Source: Octopus sinensis (taxonomy: Eukaryota). Taken from it: a stretch of DNA of 36,788 nt. The stretch spans positions 1 through 36,788 of the forward strand of contig NW_021836864.1 of the NCBI RefSeq assembly GCF_006345805.1. The letters are read 5' to 3'. The position numbers and the translations under genes were made by a program. A model generated the notes under the pieces. It searched no databases and was not told the origin of the DNA. It saw nothing but the letters and a program-made list of their open reading frames with translations. Below, one piece after another: positions 7,424-36,000 of this stretch (the stretch's first letter is position 1; each line of letters starts with the position of its first letter).

Positions 7424-8140
7424 GTTTTATTTCAATATTTCTTGCCAATAGAGGAAGAGCCGGTTTCTAACCTTGATCCAAGGTCCCTTTATTGGAATTT
7501 CAACATCAACAACAGGGTATTTTTGTTGGTATGTATGTATCTGTGCGGATTTGTATGTTTATTTTATGTATGTATTCTCATGCTTATACTTGCGTATCTA
7601 GACATACTCATATATATTTAAATGATAAACTTCTGGAAAGTTTTACAGGCTTTTACAGTTCCAGTGATGGATTGGATCTGTAGTCTTCGAATTAATTTTC
7701 TCTTTTCTGGTTTTGAGAAGCCTAATTTCTCAAGATTGGTATTTAGGCTGTGTGTTACATATCTCAGCGTTCCAATAATTACAGTTATAAACCTGAACTT
7801 GTAATCTGGATAGAGTAACTGCAGACTTCTCAATAGTCCAGCGTAGGTGTTCTCTTATTCACTGATCTTCAGCTTCATGTTAACAACCGCTGGGCAGTTA
7901 ATTTCCACAACTGTGTACAGTTCCTCTTTTCTATCCCAAATCCTTATACCAGGTCTATTGTGTTCATATTTTATTGAGGTTTTCACTAGAACATTCCACC
8001 AGGACTCATTTTCATTATGAGTGGCTATGGCTTCTACCATTCTCTGGGTTCTTATTTCTTTGTCCTCGGGGTTATTCTTTCCACGAATCTCGTTATACAG
8101 TGTCCTAGCTACAACATCATGTCTCATCGGTATATACACC
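7424..8140 (-). mobile_element. 3' end of an RLE-type non-LTR retrotransposon (R4/Dong-like), decayed
   Basis: RHDVVAR...WWNVLVKT...HNRPGIRIWDR...VVEINCP...KISE*ENTY..L...IIGTL...KTFQKFII. This is RHD plus a PD-(D/E)xK restriction-like endonuclease with one in-frame stop, then a 3' UTR. Confidence 0.8.
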
Positions 8141-8599
8141 TTTATTACAGCTGCAAACTTATCATCAAACTGTTACTCAGAGTTTCCCTTTCTCGTTCGT
8201 CGGATATTTGTGATGAATATTCATCACGAATGTCCGACTAACGGGAAAGGAAAACTCCAAAACTTAAATTGTTGAGTCGATGTGCACTCTCAGTAATAAA
8301 ATACCTTAGATGAACTAAAATTGTTCATCCCAGACTTATGCGCTTTAATCTGGGTAGCAAGGAATTCTAAGGTAGAGCTGAGCCGCAGAAGGGCTTCATA
8401 AAAGAAGCCCAACCCTTACGGAAGTGTTTCTGCCCTTAAAATTCTTACACCTTATCGGCCGCATCTTGATCATGACTCACGGATACCTCATATGCTGTCC
8501 TTATTTTGTGTAACAGTTTGCCTTTTGGCTTACACCTTCCTGGATGTCAGATATGCCAGAGTCAAGAGGCCCTGGATGTTACATTGCGTGTAATGTAAG

Positions 8600-10260
8600 A
8601 TATAACTTTTGAAGTTTTCTTTGATTCCTCATTGAACGCTTTTCAGATACTTTTACCATTGCTCTTAGGGCTCTGACCTCTTTTCCCAGGAACTAACGAT
8701 TGTTTCATGAAATCACAGGCAGATATCCCTTAAGCCCCACTTCTATGGTGATGACTCTGCTTTGGAAGTCAGATTCTCTCAGTTAGATGGCTAAGCTAAA
8801 ATACTTTTCCATCTTGTAGATGTGGTCTTTCTCCTTTATGCTTTTATATAGCAGAGTGGCTCAAGTATCAGAGTTATTTGCTTTGAGGAGAATGAGTAAA
8901 GTATAATATCCAGACTTATATCACCCTTGTTGATGATTTGTGGGTGACTTTTTCCACTCCAGAGGATCTTCTGTATACTCCTGGTCTTCTACTTCATCCA
9001 GTTGAGCCCGCTTCTGTGATTCAGTCGTCACAGCTGTTCCAGACCACCATTTTTTGCTACCTGTCATGTGAAATATTGGTAGAACTTCTGGCGACGAAGT
9101 CTTCCCTCTCACATGTAAAACATCCCTTTAAGCATTTGATTGTGCGTCCATGTGTATGCATTTCCCTTGGGCTTAAGTCACTTTAAATAAGTTCAGGACA
9201 TGCATCGCTGTTTGTTTACCTTGATATAACGGGCATTGGTAGGGTTAACTAATTTTCCATACCTCACCAAACTTGTATTCAAAGGCAGGAGGTTATTTAT
9301 AGATCTGAGGACGAAATTGTCTCTACGAGAAGTTATATATCTTATTTCATTGCGACTGAGGCTTCTTTGGAGTGCAGTCTCCCGAGTTATTCATTGTCCT
9401 TGTTGACCCTATTGGCGCCCTCCTTCCCCATCACTTCCTGTATTATCATGTTCCTTGTTTCCCTTTAGCTGTGGACCACCACTCTATTGAGCCGCTCTCT
9501 GCCCATTGGTCTTCGTGCATCTTGTTATTTCCCTTACCTTTAGACTTCGCTTTGCTGCAATCACCGCCTCTTGAAACTTCTACTTACTGCCAGTTCTTAG
9601 ATTGGATTGGATTAATCTCACGACCTTATCGTCTAAGTCCTCAAGCAAACACAGAGCCTTGCTTTTCCAGTCTTGTACTCCTCCGCGATGGACTTTAGGG
9701 GTAGCTTTAGCCCTGCCTCGTAACTATAAAGAGCGACATCAGTGAGGTCAGGTGAGACACCAAGAAATCTCTTGATGTATTTATTAATCTCGCACTCCAC
9801 AATTCCTATCCGTGTTAGTACTGATATCATACATCAGCAAAGGCCAGAGGAGTTTAGGTATCAGAATGACCTTCAGGCACCAAGCTTTATATTTGCCAGA
9901 GATGCTATATGGCTTGCATGCTCTTTTCTGTAATTTGCTTAGCTTCATTTCCCTTCTTTGTAGCACCCAAGGATTGCCTTACCACGTTTCAAGGCTCTTG
10001 ACTGCTTCTTCTGCCACTGTTGGGATGGGTTGGTTGCCAATAGTCAACACAATCTTATCCACTATTTTCTTCTTCTGTTGTAAGAGGCACCGTGACTCCT
10101 TTGGCTTGAAGCTCATTCTAGACAAGAAGACTTATCTAACTGCGCGTTTTATTCAATGGAAAGTACTGTTGCGTCATCCATAAAGGCCCTTAAAGAGGGC
10201 ATTCGTCAAGTTACGACAAAAACAGCCTAGCATTCAGTGTAAAGGCCATAGTGTTGCACA
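8600..10260 (-). mobile_element. Hero-like (R2 superfamily) non-LTR retrotransposon, 5'-truncated and frameshifted
   Basis: LRAFMDD at about 10172-10195; KAWCLKVILIPKLLWPLLMYDI; INKYIKRFLG...ALY...LKLPLKSIAEEYKTGKARL; degenerate CCHC/WxHN region at about 9140-9320; RLE residues DIILYS...KY..L...IEVGLKGY at about 8720-8920. Confidence 0.85.
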
Positions 10261-17590: not shown

Positions 17591-17645
<55 letters not shown>

Positions 17646-17699
17646 GAAATATTAAAATAACTAAGTCTCTCTAAAAGAGAACAGCGGCAGCGTTCCCGG

Positions 17700-17962
17700 A
17701 AAATAATAGTTATCGCCATACTAATATGGCATTCTTGTAAAAATAAGAAAAAAGCTGTCCGCTTATTAGCTCCATGAGGCCATCGCCTTAAGTTAGCTAT
17801 TTGATACACAAACTGTATCCATATAACCTTCGAAGGTTATATGGATACAGTTTGTGTATCAAATAGCTAACTTAAGGCGATGGCCTCATGGAGCTAATAA
17901 GCGGACAGCTTTTTTCTTATTTTTATAAGAATGCCATATTAGTATGGCGATAACTATTATTT

Positions 17963-17963
<1 letters not shown>
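17700..17963. repeat. 264-bp spacerless palindrome
   Basis: 132-bp arms centred on CCTTC|GAAGG (17831/17832). One mismatch seen (G17737/T17926). Confidence 0.95.
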
Positions 17964-17993
<30 letters not shown>

Positions 17994-20522: not shown

Positions 20523-20720
20523 ATAGGAGAATGTATGTATGTATATATAAATATAAATTCGATTAGAGGTTGTGTTAACCGCGTGAAGGGATGGTTGCAT
20601 CCAAGGGAATACCGGTTCAATACCTAGTATTTTTGGGGAATGAATTTCCTGAAAATAACAGGTATCTGTATAAAAACATATAGTTTATATTCATATAAAA
20701 GAAGAAAAAGTAGATGGTGT

Positions 20721-21166
20721 TTGGGAAGTTAATAATTGTTTATTATTAACAGCATATTCATCCTCCTCCCTTACAGCTGTTTCAATTAATGCCTAGTAAA
20801 TATTAAATAAATATTATATTTATATGACCCAAGTATCATATTTTCAGAGGGGAAAAATATACTCTTGGATGTTTTATGTGTTTATGGATTCATTATAGCA
20901 GACTAGATGATACATTCAGTATCATTCAGTTTGCTATAATGAATCCATGAACACGTAATATAAACACATAACATATTGCAGAGTCAGCTATAATGAATTC
21001 ATAAACACACATAAAATATCCAAGGTCATATTTTTTCCTCTGAAGATATGATGCTCGGGTCATATAAATTTAATATTTACTTAATATTTACTGAGTATTA
21101 ATTGAAACGGCTGTAAGGGATGATGATTAATTTGGTGTTAATAATAAACAATTATTAACTTCCCAA
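20721..21166. repeat. Diverged inverted repeat (~185-bp arms), each arm with a hammerhead-like motif
   Basis: 20721-20904 pairs with 20982-21166. HHR-like motifs at 21035-21120 (+) and 20767-20853 (-, core mutated to CTGAAAA). Confidence 0.85.
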
Positions 21167-21208
21167 TCTCCATTTTCTTTTTCTTCTTTTACACAGATAC
21201 ATGTACAC

Positions 21209-23300: not shown

Positions 23301-24400
23301 CATATATATATATATGCACACACATACACCACACACACACACACACACAAATGTTTGCGCGAGTAGAAAAGGAATTTCTTTTTACTTAAATATATTCAGT
23401 GAAGTAAGAAAGACTGGAAACATCAGACAACGCTAGGAAATCGAGTTGGTTTCCTTTTTTTCTCCTTCTATTCTTAATGCGTGATCTTTGATCGGACTTA
23501 TGGTGACTGTAAAATATTTCTTGGAATTTTGCAGACTTGTATTTTCCAATTTTGCTTCCAAAAGTAAATTCAATGGTTGCTAGAAATCTCTGATCTAACC
23601 GATCTATCGGTATAATTACTTTGGAAAATGCTTAGGATAAAGAAACACGTTTTATTATTTTGGTGCAAAAGCTTGGTGAAGAATCGTGGATCTCTGAATG
23701 GAAAAGAATTGTTTGCAAAGATACGGTTTGTGACTTTAATAATAAAGGATCCGTGGTTAACCTTCCCATGGTAACCTTTTAAACTTTGGTAAGTGGCTTA
23801 GAATGACCAAGTTAAACTTAGGAAGCATCGGAAATATTTGACGTGTGTTTATGTGCATGTATGCATATGTGAAGGTATATATGTATACATGTGCATATAT
23901 TCTTAGAAGTATGTGTCTATACTCACTCATTTATACACATGCACGCACACAGACTCAGATATTGATCCCACTAATACACACACACACGTACACACACACA
24001 TGCATTCACACGTATACATGAAAGAACACTGTTCTCGCATAAAAAGGTCTAGAAACACACACATAAACGCACGTATTATTCCCCATAAACGCACTCATAT
24101 ATATATATATATATATATACATGCGCAAATGTCGAAAGATGAAATGAGTGCTCAACAGCGCATTGGTGGATACTGTTTTCCAAAATGGAGGTGAACAACT
24201 TTCTCCATGTGATCGGCTTAAAAAATTCTTAAGACACTAGGATATTTTACGATTTTTCTTAATATGAAACCAATGGTAGCCTTAATTCAAAAATACAGAA
24301 ATCATTTATCCATCAATGCAGTATACATATATATATATATATTATTTTTGAGTATGCATTGTCTGGGAGATTTTTCTTATAATATATATATATATATATA

Positions 24401-24996
24401 TTTCAACAATTGAGGGTAAAATTAATTAATTAATTAATCAAATTTCACCAAGTATTCAGTATGCAAAGGGACCATTTAAGGCAAATTCAATTATTACATT
24501 ATATAAAAGGGCTTAGTAAAATAAATTACTTTGCCGCATACTGAACTCGTTAGAAATAGCAGCTAAAGAAACTATTTCTAACACTTAAAGAAAACCTCTC
24601 TCATATAGTGCTTGCTCAATTCAACCCAAGAAAGTATGAGGGTAGAGACCCATTAAAAATCAAATGCAAAGGTTATTTGAGTACGTACGTTTTCAAGATT
24701 AGCCAAGTTCGACCCTTCTCTCATCAGCTCAGAATGCCCTTGTTTGAGTTTGAAACACTGAAAATGGGAGCATACCCTTTCGGCTTGTTATCGCTTCTGA
24801 AGATTTGTTCCCAACTAACAGTGCTAGCTAACTCAAATATGCAAGAGAAAAATTTCTGTTCTCCCCTTTCCACCAGCGTGGGTTAAAATCAGCAACACTA
24901 TCCTTTTTTTTTCGGTAAAATCCAAGACAATTAAGTAGAGAGAGATGAATTATAATTTCAACAATTGAGGGTAAAATTAATTAATTAATTAATCAA
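24401..24996 (-). repeat. Inverted copy (~1.1 units) of the ~550-bp HHR repeat
   Basis: Reverse complement of the array unit. HHR at 24678-24731. Confidence 0.92.
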
Positions 24997-26443
24997 GTAA
25001 TTTATTTTACTAAGCCCTTTTATATAATGTAATAATTTGAATTTGCCTTAAATGGTCCCTTTGCATACTGAATACTTGGTGAATTTGATTAATTAATTAA
25101 TTAATTTTACCCTCAATTGTTGAAATTATATTCATCTCTCTCTACTTAATTGTCTTGGATTTTACCGAAAAAAAAGGATAGTGTTTGCTGATTTTAACCC
25201 ACGCTGGGGAAAGGGGAGAACAGAAATTTTTCTCTTGCATATTTGAGTTAGCTAGCACTGTTAGTTGGGAACAAATCTTCAGAAGCGATAACAAGCCGAA
25301 AGGGTATGCTCCCATTTTCAGTGTTTTCAAACTCAAACAAGGGCATTCTGAGCTGATGAGAGAAGGGTCGAACTTGGCTAATCTTGAAAGTACGTACTCA
25401 AATAACCTTTGCATTTTTGATTTTTAATGTCTCTACCCTCATACTTTCTTGGGTTGAATTGAGCAAGCACTATATGAGAGAGGTTTTCTTTAAGTGTTAG
25501 AAATAGTTTCTTAGCTGCTATTCTAACGAGTTCAGTATGCGGCAAAGTAATTTATTTTACTAAGCCCTTTTATATAATGGAATAATTTGAATTTGCTTAA
25601 ATTGGTCCCTTTGCATACTGAATTACTTGGTGAATTGATTAATTAATTAATTAATTTTACCCTCAATTGTTGAAATTATAATTATTCTCTCTCTACTTAA
25701 TTGTCTTGGATTTTACCGAAAAAAAGGATAGTGTTTGCTTGATTTTAACCCACGCTGGGTGGAAAGGGGAGAACAGAATTTTTCCTTGCATATTTGAGTT
25801 AGCTAGCACTGTTAGTTGGGAACAAATCTTCAGAAGCGATAAACAAGCCGAAAGGGTATGCTCCCATTTTCAGTGTTTTCAAACTCAAACAAGGGCATTC
25901 TGAGCTGATAGAGAAAGGGTCGAACTTGGCTAATCTTGAAAACGTACGTACTCAAATAACCTTTGCATTGATTTTTTAATGTCTCTACCCTCATACTTCT
26001 TGGGTTGAATTGAGCAAGCACTATGAGAGAGGGTTTTCTTTAAGTGTTAGAAATAGTTTCTTTAGATGCTATTCTAACGAGTTCAGTATGCGGCAAAGTA
26101 ATTTATTTACTAAGCCCTTTATATAATGTAATAATTTGATTTGCCTTAAATGGTCCCTTTGCATACTGAATATGGTGAATTTGATTAATTAATTAATTAA
26201 TTTTACCCTCAATTGTTGAAATTATAATTCATCTCTCTCACTTAATTGTCTTGGATTTTACCGAAAAAAAAAGGATAGTGTTGCTGATTTTAACCCACGC
26301 TGGTGGAAAGGGGAGAACAGAATTTTTCTCTTGCATATTTGAGTTAGCTAGCACTGTAGTTGGGAACAAATCTTCAGAAGCGATAACAAGCCGAAAGGGT
26401 ATGCTCCCATTTTCAGTGTTTTCAAACTCAAACAAGGGCATTC

Positions 26444-26496
26444 TGAGCTGATGAGAGAAGGGTCGAACTTGGCTAATCTTGAAACGTACGTACTCA
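26444..26496 (+). ncRNA. Type I hammerhead ribozyme (array copy 3)
   Basis: TGAG-CTGATGA-GAGA/agggtcgaacttggctaa/TCTT-GAAACGTACGTA-CTCA. Complete core, GUA triplet, palindromic stem III. Confidence 0.8.
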
Positions 26497-26989
26497 AATA
26501 CCTTTGCATTGATTTTTTAATGTCTCTACCCTCATACTTTCTTGGTTGAATTGAGCAAGCACTATATGAGAGAGGTTTCTTAAGTGTTAGAAATAGTTTC
26601 TTTAGCTGCTATTTCTAACGAGTTCAGTATGCGGCAAAGTAAAGTATTTATTTTACTAAGCCCTTTTATATAATGTAATAATTTGAATTTGCCTTAAATG
26701 GTCCCTTTGCATACTGAATACTTGGTGAAATTGATTAATTAATTAATTAATTTTACCCTCAATTGTTAAAATTATAATTCTCTCTCTCTACTTACTTGTC
26801 TTGGATTTTACGAAAAAAGGATAGTGTTTGCTGATTTAACCCACGCTGGTGGAAAGGGGAGAACAGAAATTTTTCTCTTGCATATTGAGTTAGCTAGCAC
26901 TGTTAGTTGGGAACAAATCTTCAGAAGCGATAACAAGCCGAAGGGTATGCTCCCATTTTCAGTGTTTTCAAACTCAAACAAGGGCATTC

Positions 26990-27042
26990 TGAGCTGATGA
27001 GAGAAGGGTCGAACTTGGCTAATCTTGAAACGTACGTACTCA
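26990..27042 (+). ncRNA. Type I hammerhead ribozyme (array copy 4)
   Basis: Same intact motif as 26444-26496. Confidence 0.8.
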
Positions 27043-27542
27043 AATAACCTTGCATTTGATTTTTTAATGTCTCTACCCTCATACTTTCTTGGGTGAATTG
27101 AGCAAGCACTATATGAGAGAGGTTTTCTTTAAGTGTTAGAAATAGTTTCTTTAGCTGCTATTTCTAACGAGTTCAGTATGCGGCAAAGTAATTTATTTTA
27201 CTAAGCCCTTTTATATAATGTAATAATTTGAATTTGCCTTAATGGCCCTTTGCATACTGAATACTTGGTGAGTTGTAATTAATTAATTAATTTTACCCTC
27301 AATTGTTGAAATTATAATTCATCTCTCTCTACTTAATTGTCTTGGATTTTACCGAAAAAAAAGGATAGTGTTTGCTTGATTTTAACCCACGCTGGTGGAA
27401 AGGGGAGAGGGACAGAACAGAATTTTTCTCTTGCATATTTGAGTTAGAGCACTGTTAGTTGGGAACAATCTTCAGAAGCGATAACAAGCCGAAAGGGTTA
27501 TGCTCCCATTTTCAGTGTTTTCAAACTCAAACAAGGGCATTC

Positions 27543-27596
27543 TGAGCTGATGAGAGAAGGGTCGAAACTTGGCTAATCTTGAAACGTACGTACTCA
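27543..27596 (+). ncRNA. Type I hammerhead ribozyme (array copy 5)
   Basis: Same intact core, with one extra A in loop II. Confidence 0.8.
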
Positions 27597-27767
27597 AATA
27601 ACTTTGCATTTGATTTTTTAATGTCTCTACCCTCATACTTCTTGGGTTGAATTGAGCAAGCACTATATGAGAGAGGTTTTCTTGAAGTGTTAGAAATAGT
27701 TTTTTAGCGATTGCTATTTCTAACGAGTTCAGTATGCGGCAAAAGTAAATTATTTACTAAGCCCTTT

Positions 27768-27773
<6 letters not shown>

Positions 27774-27813
<40 letters not shown>

Positions 27814-27836
27814 TATATACATTACACACATACCAC

Positions 27837-27908
<72 letters not shown>

Positions 27909-27941
27909 CATATATAGCAGTAAGAAAATAAGAAAATATAT

Positions 27942-27986
<45 letters not shown>

Positions 27987-28196
27987 CATATATATACATA
28001 TATATGCATATATATACATCAATATCTACATACTATATATATGCATATATGCATATATACTATATGCATATATACATATCTACATATATAACATATATAT
28101 GCATATATACATATATATGCATATATATACATATATATACTATATTCTTTATATAAGCGTATATATATGTGTGTGTATATATGTATATGTTTTTGC

Positions 28197-28238
<42 letters not shown>
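27774..28238. repeat. (TA)n-rich microsatellite block
   Basis: Direct reading. Confidence 0.95.
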
Positions 28239-33900: not shown

Positions 33901-34587
33901 AACGTAAACGGTCAAAATAACGACATAGGCTACACTAATGTCTGTCCAATTAGTAAAGTTTTGCTCTGATGAGCACCAGAAAAAAAAAAACAAAACAATA
34001 ACAAGAACAAGATTTCCAATAATCTTTATATTCTTTGCTTTTTCGTTTGTTTGTGTTCCGTGTTCTTCTGCATAATGAGAACAGTCTTGAAACACAACCA
34101 AATGAATGTCTGCTGCGCTTAAAACTTGCTTAAATGTTAGTGATGGCGTAAGAGGAAAGTCAAGAGGATAGAAAGAGAGGGAGAGAGAGAGACGGACAGT
34201 CAGATAGAGTGAGAGAGTGAGACTAAGTGACAGAGAGAGATAGATGCAGAGAGAGAGGTGGGGTAAGACGAACGCATACAAACAGAGAAAAGGTTGTTTA
34301 TGCAACCGGTTGTCATCTTACGGCTAATGATTACAGGTTGCATATGGAAGGAAAGAGGAAGCGATTAATTGGACAATGTAGGTGGGGGGTGATTGGATGG
34401 GTGGATGGATGGGGGAACTCAGAATGCAAACAGCAAGTAGAAGTACTGCAAAACAGGTGTTTCAAAGGCTCAAGGGATCCCGCCAGCTCCTAGCCTTTGT
34501 GAGTCGGGCCAGAAGTAAGTAGTTTTGAAGGAAAAGTCAGTCGATTGCATTGATTCCAAATAGTTGGGTGGTACTTTATTTTATCGG

Positions 34588-34810
34588 CGAGCTGGCAGAA
34601 TCGTTAGCACGCCGGGCGAAATGCTTAGCGGTATTTCGTCTGCCGCTACGTTCTGAGTTCAAATTCCGCCGAGGTCGACTTTGCCTTTCATCCTTTTGGG
34701 GTCGATTAAATAAGTACCAGTTGCGATATAATCGATATAATCGACTTAATCCCTGTGTCTGTGATTGTTTGTCTCCTCTGTGTGTAGCCCCTTGTGGGCA
34801 GTAAAGAAAT
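34588..34810 (+). mobile_element. SINE family C, near full-length
   Basis: Head GGCGAGCTGGCAGAATCGTTAGCACGCCGGGCG, B-box GAGTTCAAATTCC, core GCCTTTCATCCTTTTGGGGTCGAT. Confidence 0.88.
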
Positions 34811-36000
34811 TGGTACTTTATTTTATCGACCCTGAATGTGTGTGTGTGTGGGGGGCAAAGCTGCCATCAGCAAGATTTGAGCTTACAACGTAAAAAAAGG
34901 GAAGAAATGACGCTAAAGATTTTGTTCGGCATGCTAACAATTCTGCCAGCTCACCACAAAGAGGAATTTTGGCAAGAGGAGCTTAATCAATTGCATCGAT
35001 CCTGTACTCAGCTGGTTCTTCGCTTTATTGATCACAGTGGGACGAAACGCAAAGCTGTCCTCGGCGGGATTTGAACTCAGAGTCGGAATAAATACTGCAA
35101 ACCAATTCTTTCGACGCTCTGACGATTCAGCCAGCTAGCTCTCTCATAATTTAGAAAGAACGGTTTCAAATTTTGACACAAGACCAGTAATTTCAAGGAA
35201 GGGGATAAACCGATTACATCGACGCCAGGGCATAACTTCTACTTATTTTATCGACCCCCGAAAGAATGAAAAGTAAAGTTGAGCTCGGAGGAATTTGAAG
35301 TCAAAATGTGAAGACGGACGAATTGCCGCTAAGCATTTTGCCCGGCATTCTATCGACTCTGCCAACTCGCCGCCTTACAGATGAGAAATAGTGGTTTCAA
35401 ATTTTAGCACAATGCCAGCAATTTCGGGGAAAGGGATGTATTCAACTGGTATTATTTTATTGACCTCGAAAGGATGAACGGCAAAGTCGACTTCGGCGGA
35501 ATTTGAAATCAGAGCGTAATGATAGATGAAATGGCGCTAAGTATTTGTCCGGCGTACGAACGGTTCTTCCAGCTCGTTGCCTTAAAAATGAGAAATAATC
35601 CTTTCTAATGCAGGCACAAGGCCTGAAATTTTGAGGAAGGGAGTAACCGATTTCACCGACCCCAGTATCGGCTGCTACTTATTTTATCGACCACGAAAGG
35701 ATGTAAGGCAAAGTCAACTTCGGCGAAATTTGAACTCAGAACGTAGCGGCAGATGAAATACCTATTTCTTTTCTACCCACAAGGAGCTACACACAGAGAA
35801 GACAAACAAGGACAGACAAACGGATTAAGTCGATTATATCGCCCTCAGTGCGTAATTGCTACTTAATTTATCGATCCCCAAAGGATGAAAGGCAAAGTCG
35901 ACCTCGGCAGAATTTGAACTCAGAACATAACGGCAGATGAAATACGGCTACGCATTTCGCCTGGCATGCTAACGTTTCTGCCAGCTTGCCGCCTTCCACC
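34811..36000 (-). mobile_element. About six consecutive same-orientation SINE family C copies
   Basis: Core recurs near 34860, 35055, 35280, 35487, 35712 and 35897. Confidence 0.8.

What the first reader, a model, noticed from the sequence alone, without database searches (positions are those of the whole stretch)
24401..27773. ~550-bp non-coding tandem unit with one hammerhead ribozyme per copy: candidate large cephalopod retrozyme / circRNA source
Seen: five head-to-tail units plus an inverted one. Each carries TGAG-CTGATGA-stemII-GAAACGTACGTA-CTCA, intact in copies 3-5 and with 1-bp indels in the others. There is no recognisable ORF, and both ends run into (TA)n. Known: tandem type I HHR monomers define metazoan non-LTR retrozymes, which are cut into unit-length linear or circular RNAs and are thought to use PLE enzymes; as I recall, described monomers are usually shorter (about 150-400 nt). 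Palindromic stem III (ACGTACGT) is the form that favours dimeric hammerheads between neighbouring copies. Inference: a transcript through the array would release ~550-nt monomers cut after GUA, and the array could be a rolling-circle RT product.
Basis: partly seen in the sequence, partly recalled or inferred. Interest (0 to 1): 0.88.

Follow-up and report, generated by a model that had tools for sequence, protein, structure and literature searches.

The report
Two-armed hammerhead retrozyme with Penelope ends
A ~553-base non-coding repeat with a hammerhead ribozyme motif sits at many genome sites as two back-to-back tandem arms that, wherever both ends could be classed (47 of 47 sites), stop at two different fixed points, as the Penelope-like retrotransposons of the same genome do, which likely means a Penelope enzyme copies one RNA circle onto both ends of a cut in (TA)n DNA.

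Summary
The array is real: a 602-bp inverted arm plus a ~5-unit forward arm, one type I hammerhead motif per unit. It belongs to a dispersed non-LTR retrozyme radiation (3,646 exact core matches genome-wide). Unit size is not unusual. The news is the insertion anatomy. Arrays lie in (TA)n as two outward-pointing arms ending at two fixed internal sites, A (unit ~280) and B (~183), neither the ribozyme cut site. All 47 two-ended loci (of 68 classed) have one A and one B; none is A/A or B/B. Two young ORF-bearing Penelope-like (PLE) families in the genome obey the same rule (22 of 22), with 70-nt tails. Both arms of a locus share one variant pattern (77 of 82 cases fixed), and 5' breakpoints do not pile up at the cut site (6 of 80). 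Best model: a PLE enzyme primes both target ends at A and B on one monomer circle and reverse-transcribes round it. Not shown: cleavage, circles, transcription, or the cognate PLE. Rfam finds no hammerhead. Fold-back priming remains a serious rival for the inverted arm.

The parts
24381..24399 (.). left (TA)n flank, likely target
   Evidence: sequence
24400..24996 (-). inverted arm (~1.1 units); its 3' end is site A (unit ~280) at 24400
24678..24731 (-). hammerhead motif of the inverted arm (one extra A, probable read error)
24995..24996 (.). head-to-head junction with 2-nt overlap (unit positions 239 and 150)
24995..27775 (+). forward arm (~5 units of ~553 bp); its 3' end is site B (unit ~183) at 27775
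25349..25400 (+). hammerhead motif, copy 1 (one C missing in stem III)
25901..25954 (+). hammerhead motif, copy 2 (1-nt indels in core)
26444..26496 (+). hammerhead motif, copy 3, intact; predicted cut after 26492
26990..27042 (+). hammerhead motif, copy 4, intact; predicted cut after 27038
27115..27335 (+). conserved structured domain of one unit (unit ~76-300) holding site B (~27219) and site A (~27312); likely RT recognition element
27543..27596 (+). hammerhead motif, copy 5, core intact; predicted cut after 27592
27768..28238 (.). right (TA)n flank, likely target

Best explanation
This is one insertion of a non-coding hammerhead retrozyme family whose arrays have two back-to-back arms ending at two fixed sites, and it was likely written into (TA)n DNA by a Penelope-like (PLE) RT-endonuclease that primed both ends of the cut on a single, probably circular, monomer RNA. 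Shown: two arms pointing outward, (TA)n flanks, one A and one B end per two-ended locus, one variant pattern per locus in both arms, the same end rule in ORF-bearing PLEs of this genome. Inferred: an array transcript is cut by hammerheads working as dimers; a host ligase closes the ~553-nt monomer; a PLE dimer binds the conserved unit 76-300 domain, nicks both target strands, and starts one cDNA at A and the other at B, 97 nt apart (the PLE 'tail'); each RT runs round the circle for under one to about 25 laps; the two cDNA 3' ends join at short microhomology.
For: A/B rule: 47 of 47 two-ended loci among 68 classed (40 of family f1, 2 of f2, 5 of f3), P 7e-15 against a coin toss. Same rule in PLE-X, 12 of 12 two-armed loci among 20, and PLE-Y, 10 of 10 among 16, tails ~70 nt; PLE-Y has a 727-aa frame with RT and C-terminal GIY-YIG motifs. 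One template per locus: cross-arm distance 1.35 against 7.95 between loci; 77 of 82 locus-site cases fixed against 4% under shuffling, 16 patterns among 29 loci. 5' breakpoints within 15 nt of the cut site: 6 of 80, 4.4 expected. Longest verified arm 13,511 bp with mostly single-unit differences. Either arm may be the longer (A longer in 26 of 40). Junction overlap of 2 nt or more in 10 of 16 resolved junctions against 19% by chance. Hammerhead stems I and II covary between families; stem III duplex -9.8 kcal/mol between two copies against +2.4 as a hairpin. Circular folds z -4.9 to -7.4 in four families. Unit 136-300 is the best conserved part with the ribozyme, with 6 of 45 predicted pairs showing a two-sided change. 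In vitro, PLE PAc cuts and extends both strands, starts RT at two internal sites that bound the tail, and is predicted to be a dimer (PMC11167929).
Against: No cleavage, ligation or transcript shown. No cognate PLE found: PLE-X and PLE-Y pLTRs match the units no better than shuffles. Rfam finds no hammerhead. [quoted passage not shown] Eight of nine Xenopus retrozyme dimers did not cleave in vitro (10.64898/2026.07.22.740005). Five of 40 junctions are near-perfect mirrors (P 0.0025), as fold-back priming predicts. 21 of 68 loci have only one classifiable end. Several sister families have a mismatch at the base of stem II and a GUU site. 17 of 33 junctions could not be resolved and 4 of 16 hold inserted bases.
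Confidence: 0.62

Rival explanations
1. PLE-mobilised retrozyme, but only one target end primes on RNA. The cDNA folds back and copies itself, and the endonuclease resolves the hairpin at the other site, which gives the inverted arm and the tail.
For: Self-priming was proposed for PLE inverted repeats (PMC3846280, passages) and EN resolution for the tail (PMC8557442, passages). Five of 40 junctions lie within 6 nt of a mirror. A different element in the window at 17622-17980 has a perfect mirror junction with one longer arm. It also explains the shared variant pattern.
Against: Most junctions are far from mirror (mean offset 123 nt, 136 expected if uniform). Either site must be able to prime first, since either arm can be much the longer. 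Scattered variants in L032 are not mirrored between arms (read by eye; noisy). PAc extends both strands in vitro.
Confidence: 0.2
2. Same PLE machinery and twin priming, but the template is a long uncleaved linear transcript of a source array; the hammerhead is weak or dispensable and no circle is used.
For: PAc uses unprocessed RNA in vitro (PMC11167929). Stem III has only 2 bp. Arms of 20 or more units exist that could be sources. Several loci share one variant pattern. No RNA evidence for circles.
Against: 16 patterns among 29 loci, each fixed through its array (77 of 82 cases), need repeated passage through one unit. A linear route cannot lengthen arrays. The core is kept with covariation across families 37-93% alike in other regions.
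Confidence: 0.12
3. Arrays are pLTR remnants of an autonomous PLE amplified in place at DNA level, like satellites.
For: Proposed in the discussion of Li et al. 2026. An uncharacterised cognate PLE cannot be excluded.
Against: No array examined is contiguous with a PLE ORF. Both arms are multi-unit in 19 of 40 loci with exact A and B ends. Long arms lack blocks of shared neighbouring variants.
Confidence: 0.04
4. The tandem or inverted structure is a long-read or assembly artefact.
For: The window contig is error-rich; fold-back chimeras occur in long reads (own knowledge).
Against: The arms end at different fixed sites at dozens of loci on chromosome-scale contigs; sister families and PLEs repeat the pattern; short-read contigs of independent runs show the unit running into (TA)n at site A.
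Confidence: 0.02

Closest known systems
Metazoan non-LTR retrozymes (Cervera and de la Pena 2020, PMC7229834; Li et al. 2026, 10.64898/2026.07.22.740005)
   Same: Non-coding tandem units, one type I hammerhead each, low GC, highly self-paired predicted circle, dispersed, co-occurring with PLEs; size within the 51-972 bp range.
   Different: Arrays are two-armed with fixed A and B ends in (TA)n, which the sections I read do not describe. No target duplication can be seen. No pLTR homologue found. Expression untested.
EN+ Penelope-like elements with inverted 5' copy and tail (PMC8557442, PMC3846280, PMC11167929)
   Same: Inverted 5'-truncated arm, a tail at one end only, AT-rich or microsatellite targets, two internal RT start sites downstream of a hammerhead.
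   Different: No ORF; tail 97 nt rather than 30-40; both arms are multimers up to ~25 units; the tail is described there as optional, here it is a strict one-per-insertion rule.
Newt and axolotl satellite retrozymes with dimeric hammerheads (PMC7229834)
   Same: Weak stem III capped by a palindromic loop; dimer predicted.
   Different: Larger unit; loop 1-loop 2 contacts not tested.
L1 twin priming (recalled, not read here)
   Same: Two target ends prime on one RNA and give an inversion joined by microhomology.
   Different: In L1 the second site is variable and the template linear; here it is fixed and arms exceed unit length.

Membership tests
Non-LTR retrozyme | Type I hammerhead in each unit of a tandem repeat | tested here: met
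   200 of 220 cores intact, stems covary; Rfam gave no hit
Non-LTR retrozyme | No protein-coding ORF | tested here: met
Non-LTR retrozyme | Dispersed genomic copies (mobile) | tested here: met
Non-LTR retrozyme | Highly self-paired predicted circle | tested here: met
   z -4.9 (40 shuffles); -5.3 to -7.4 in three sister families (25 shuffles)
Non-LTR retrozyme | Self-cleavage in vitro | not testable with these tools
   only folding energies
Non-LTR retrozyme | Expressed as linear and circular monomers | tested here: inconclusive
   only contigs of runs guessed to be RNA; they cannot show strand, ends or circles
Non-LTR retrozyme | Target-site duplication longer than 4 bp, when present | tested here: inconclusive
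   both flanks are (TA)n, so none can be read
Non-LTR retrozyme | No LTR, primer binding site or polypurine tract | not tested
   no LTR-like layout seen; PBS and PPT not searched
PLE-type insertion | Inverted 5'-truncated copy, head-to-head | tested here: met
   47 of 68 loci two-ended
PLE-type insertion | Tail at one end only (two 3' termini) | tested here: met
   47 of 47 A/B; same in PLE-X and PLE-Y
PLE-type insertion | AT-rich or microsatellite target | tested here: met
Autonomous PLE or its pLTR | RT plus GIY-YIG ORF linked to the repeat | tested here: not met
   tblastn of 81 and 20 fetched stretches found only separate neighbouring remnants
Autonomous PLE or its pLTR | Sequence homology to the pLTR of a PLE in the genome | tested here: inconclusive
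   not met for PLE-X and PLE-Y or the loci, but only 150 of more than 11,000 candidates were scored per protein search
Neptune clade (for PLE-X, PLE-Y) | RT phylogeny; cysteine motif before a C-terminal GIY-YIG | tested here: inconclusive
   cysteine cluster before GIY-YIG visible (feature from PMC8557442); no tree built; Pfam gave no relevant hit

The most novel reading that the evidence does not exclude
The arrays are a genomic record of a general PLE mechanism: a dimeric RT-endonuclease docks once on a single ribozyme-made RNA circle, uses two different fixed start sites for the two target ends, and rolls both cDNAs round the same circle. This one rule would explain the PLE tail, the inverted pLTR, partial tandems and retrozyme arrays together.
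Probability: 0.5. Interest if true: 0.85.

Novelty: new variant of a known kind. Interest (0 to 1): 0.66.

Why it matters
Who moves animal retrozymes, whether the template is a circle, and how PLEs make their inverted repeats and tails are all stated as open in the papers read (PMC7229834, PMC8557442, PMC11167929, Li et al. 2026). Here a non-coding element carries the full PLE insertion signature at dozens of young loci, next to ORF-bearing PLEs with the same signature. A 553-nt RNA with two defined start sites and a (TA)n target is a small substrate for testing twin priming and rolling-circle RT in vitro.

Tried and rejected
Rfam scans: no hammerhead hit. Tandem Repeats Finder misses the unit because its period limit is 500. 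Search for the cognate PLE failed by five routes: GIY-YIG and RT protein searches (with loci in 30-33, 51-52), loose ends of run contigs (followed in 28, 38-40; they led to sister families and to a passenger inside PLE-X), relaxed hammerhead patterns (all 20 stretches were more arrays), tblastn of PLE proteins on units and pLTR alignment. A resemblance of one unit frame to the PLE-Y N-terminus was not significant. Sequencing runs: no RNA holder listed; contigs of runs guessed to be RNA cover parts of the unit and include (TA)n junctions, so they may be read-through or DNA and were not used as evidence. The motif-based end tally was mis-specified for f2, f3 and PLE-X (it gave two false B/B calls in f3 from internal matches) and was replaced; for f1 it gave 34 of 34 A/B, one of them a neighbouring sister insertion in L115. 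Pfam and PDB gave nothing useful for PLE-X or PLE-Y. In one search two of 12 rows (L100, L221) were cut out of register and add gaps. No earlier scan notes. 'Unusually large unit' rejected from Li et al. 2026.

Full report
Observation. The window holds an inverted arm (24400-24996) and a forward arm (24995-27775) of a ~553-bp unit between two (TA)n tracts. Each unit has a type I hammerhead motif: stem I 4 bp plus a bulged extension, stem II 4 bp plus a hairpin, stem III 2 bp with a palindromic loop, cut triplet GUA. Stems I and II form in the lowest-energy local fold; the full monomer fold costs 2.2 kcal/mol more, and stem III is far more stable as a duplex between two copies (-9.8) than as a hairpin (+2.4). 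Rfam does not detect it. The damaged copies are probably read errors.

Family. A DNA search gave 207 matches at the 29 loci scored, of 1,870 candidates. Three non-overlapping core patterns give 179 + 3,097 + 370 = 3,646 exact matches against 0, 1 and 3 for reversed controls; a few of these are hammerheads of unrelated elements, and families f2 and f3 are mostly outside the patterns. Sister families of 556-598 bp were found. Between families stem I swaps A-U for C-G and the first pair of stem II is G-U, A-U or G-C; some families have a mismatch there and a GUU site. Identity to f1 is highest at the ribozyme (0.81-0.85) and at unit 136-300 (0.65-0.99) and lowest at 301-500 (0.36-0.90). Words of the unit occur in runs of five coded organisms.

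Insertion anatomy. With unit position 1 set just after the cut site, arms end at about 280 (A) or 183 (B), then run into (TA)n. I classed 68 loci: 29 ranked by similarity, 31 taken in order from the first 100 rows (21 f1, 10 f2; the thirty-second was already held), and 8 f3 loci that I picked for having several units. 47 had two classifiable outward ends and all 47 were A plus B; 16 had one arm only and 5 had one end elsewhere, one of them a contig end. In the 100 rows listed, all 21 clusters with both strands read minus then plus, that is with 3' ends outward (counted by eye). Arm lengths run from 31 to 13,511 bp, A longer in 26 of 40, both over one unit in 19 of 40. In the predicted circle B lies in a long open loop and A in a hairpin loop of a branched domain.

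The same rule in PLEs. Following a loose end led to PLE-X, a young RT/GIY-YIG family; an RT search then gave PLE-Y, a 3.35-kb unit with a 727-aa frame whose nearest Atlas clusters carry GIY-YIG, HTH_animal and RVT_1 on part of their members. Both have a pLTR hammerhead, insert in (TA)n and end at two sites ~70 nt apart; two-armed loci were A plus B in 12 of 12 (20 examined) and 10 of 10 (16 examined). Neither pLTR matches the retrozyme above shuffles, so they show the mechanism but are not shown to be the partner. No array examined is joined to a PLE ORF.

One template per insertion. In 107 full f1 units from 29 loci, mean differences at 55 variable columns are 1.99 within an arm, 1.35 between arms and 7.95 between loci; private variants run through both arms in L024 (6 of 6 units) and L032 (14 of 15). 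At 19 common sites 77 of 82 locus-site cases are fixed, against 4% (max 12.5%) when units are shuffled; there are 16 patterns among 29 loci. Each array thus passed through a single unit. 5' breakpoints are not enriched at the cut site (6 of 80, 4.4 expected), as they would be for a cleaved linear RNA. Long arms of 20 and 16 aligned units show mostly single-unit differences and no neighbour blocks (weak, given read errors). Of 33 junctions tried, 16 were resolved: 10 overlap by 2 nt or more (19% by chance), 4 have inserted bases; 5 of 40 are near mirrors.

Mechanism. Shown: anatomy, end rule, single variant pattern, PLE parallel. Inferred: transcription, dimeric cleavage, ligation to a circle, binding by a PLE dimer, twin priming at A and B, rolling-circle synthesis, joining by microhomology. 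That PLE RTs lack RNase H, which would let the template survive many laps, is my own knowledge. I put PLE mobilisation at about 0.9, a circular template at about 0.75, twin priming over fold-back at about 0.7, and the whole at 0.62.

Literature. Frangieh 2024 (PMC11167929; parts 1-2 of 4 read; 3 text supplements searched without hit, figures unseen) shows both strands cut and extended, two internal RT starts bounding the tail, a predicted dimer, and hammerhead cleavage not needed. Cervera 2020 (PMC7229834; parts 2-4 of 6) shows circles in coral, mussel and axolotl and names PLEs as candidate movers. Li 2026 (10.64898/2026.07.22.740005; parts 1-3 of 5; supplements not seen) links retrozymes to pLTRs and leaves the mechanism open. 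Craig 2021 (PMC8557442), Arkhipova 2013 (PMC3846280), Cervera 2014 (PMC4209133) and PMC8969392 were seen as passages; they describe inverted copies, a tail often at one end only, self-priming and a circle model for PLEs. Eight searches listed no paper on this family, on two-armed retrozyme arrays or on a strict one-tail rule; subscription journals, Repbase and figures were not searchable, so the family may be annotated there.

Verdict. A real retrozyme of a known class whose size is ordinary, but whose insertions give quantitative genomic evidence for PLE-driven, single-template, two-ended copying. New variant of a known kind; interest 0.66.

Noticed in passing
L184:3754-7245 and L183-L198: PLE-Y: very young PLE with a 727-aa RT/GIY-YIG frame, pLTR hammerhead, many near-identical copies, (TA)n target and two fixed ends; a candidate for in vitro work.
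   Followed up: partly
L163-L182, L199, L201: PLE-X: young PLE with a ~3.5-kb microsatellite-rich 3' UTR that carries a ~220-bp two-armed retrozyme-family insertion as a passenger (31 exact motif matches).
   Followed up: partly
window 17622-17980: A different two-armed element in (TA)n with a perfect mirror junction and one arm about 60 nt longer; looks like the same A/B rule; no hammerhead seen.
   Followed up: no
window 352(+), 21040(+), 28356(-), 32380(+), 36758(-): Further single hammerhead-like motifs of other repeat families; the one at 21040 lies in an inverted repeat 20696-21191.
   Followed up: no
L208 and L209 (G000:C13:24073500-24092800): Sister-family arm of probably over 30 units; a 2.1-kb gap between the stretches was not fetched.
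   Followed up: partly
L210:3180-8200: 598-bp tandem of an f2-like family starting directly beside an f5 insertion.
   Followed up: no
L024:1948-4321: The B arm restarts twice at internal positions, suggesting template jumps.
   Followed up: no
L185:~250-550: Short two-armed element made only of PLE-X-like ends with hammerheads on both strands (positions reported on opposite strands are 9642 and 9625; layout not checked).
   Followed up: no
window 7855-10183: Broken non-LTR retrotransposon remnant with a restriction-like endonuclease motif (recalled label).
   Followed up: no
window 618, 2870, 10412, 16052, 34585-35954: Dispersed SINE-like repeat family (family D19).
   Followed up: no
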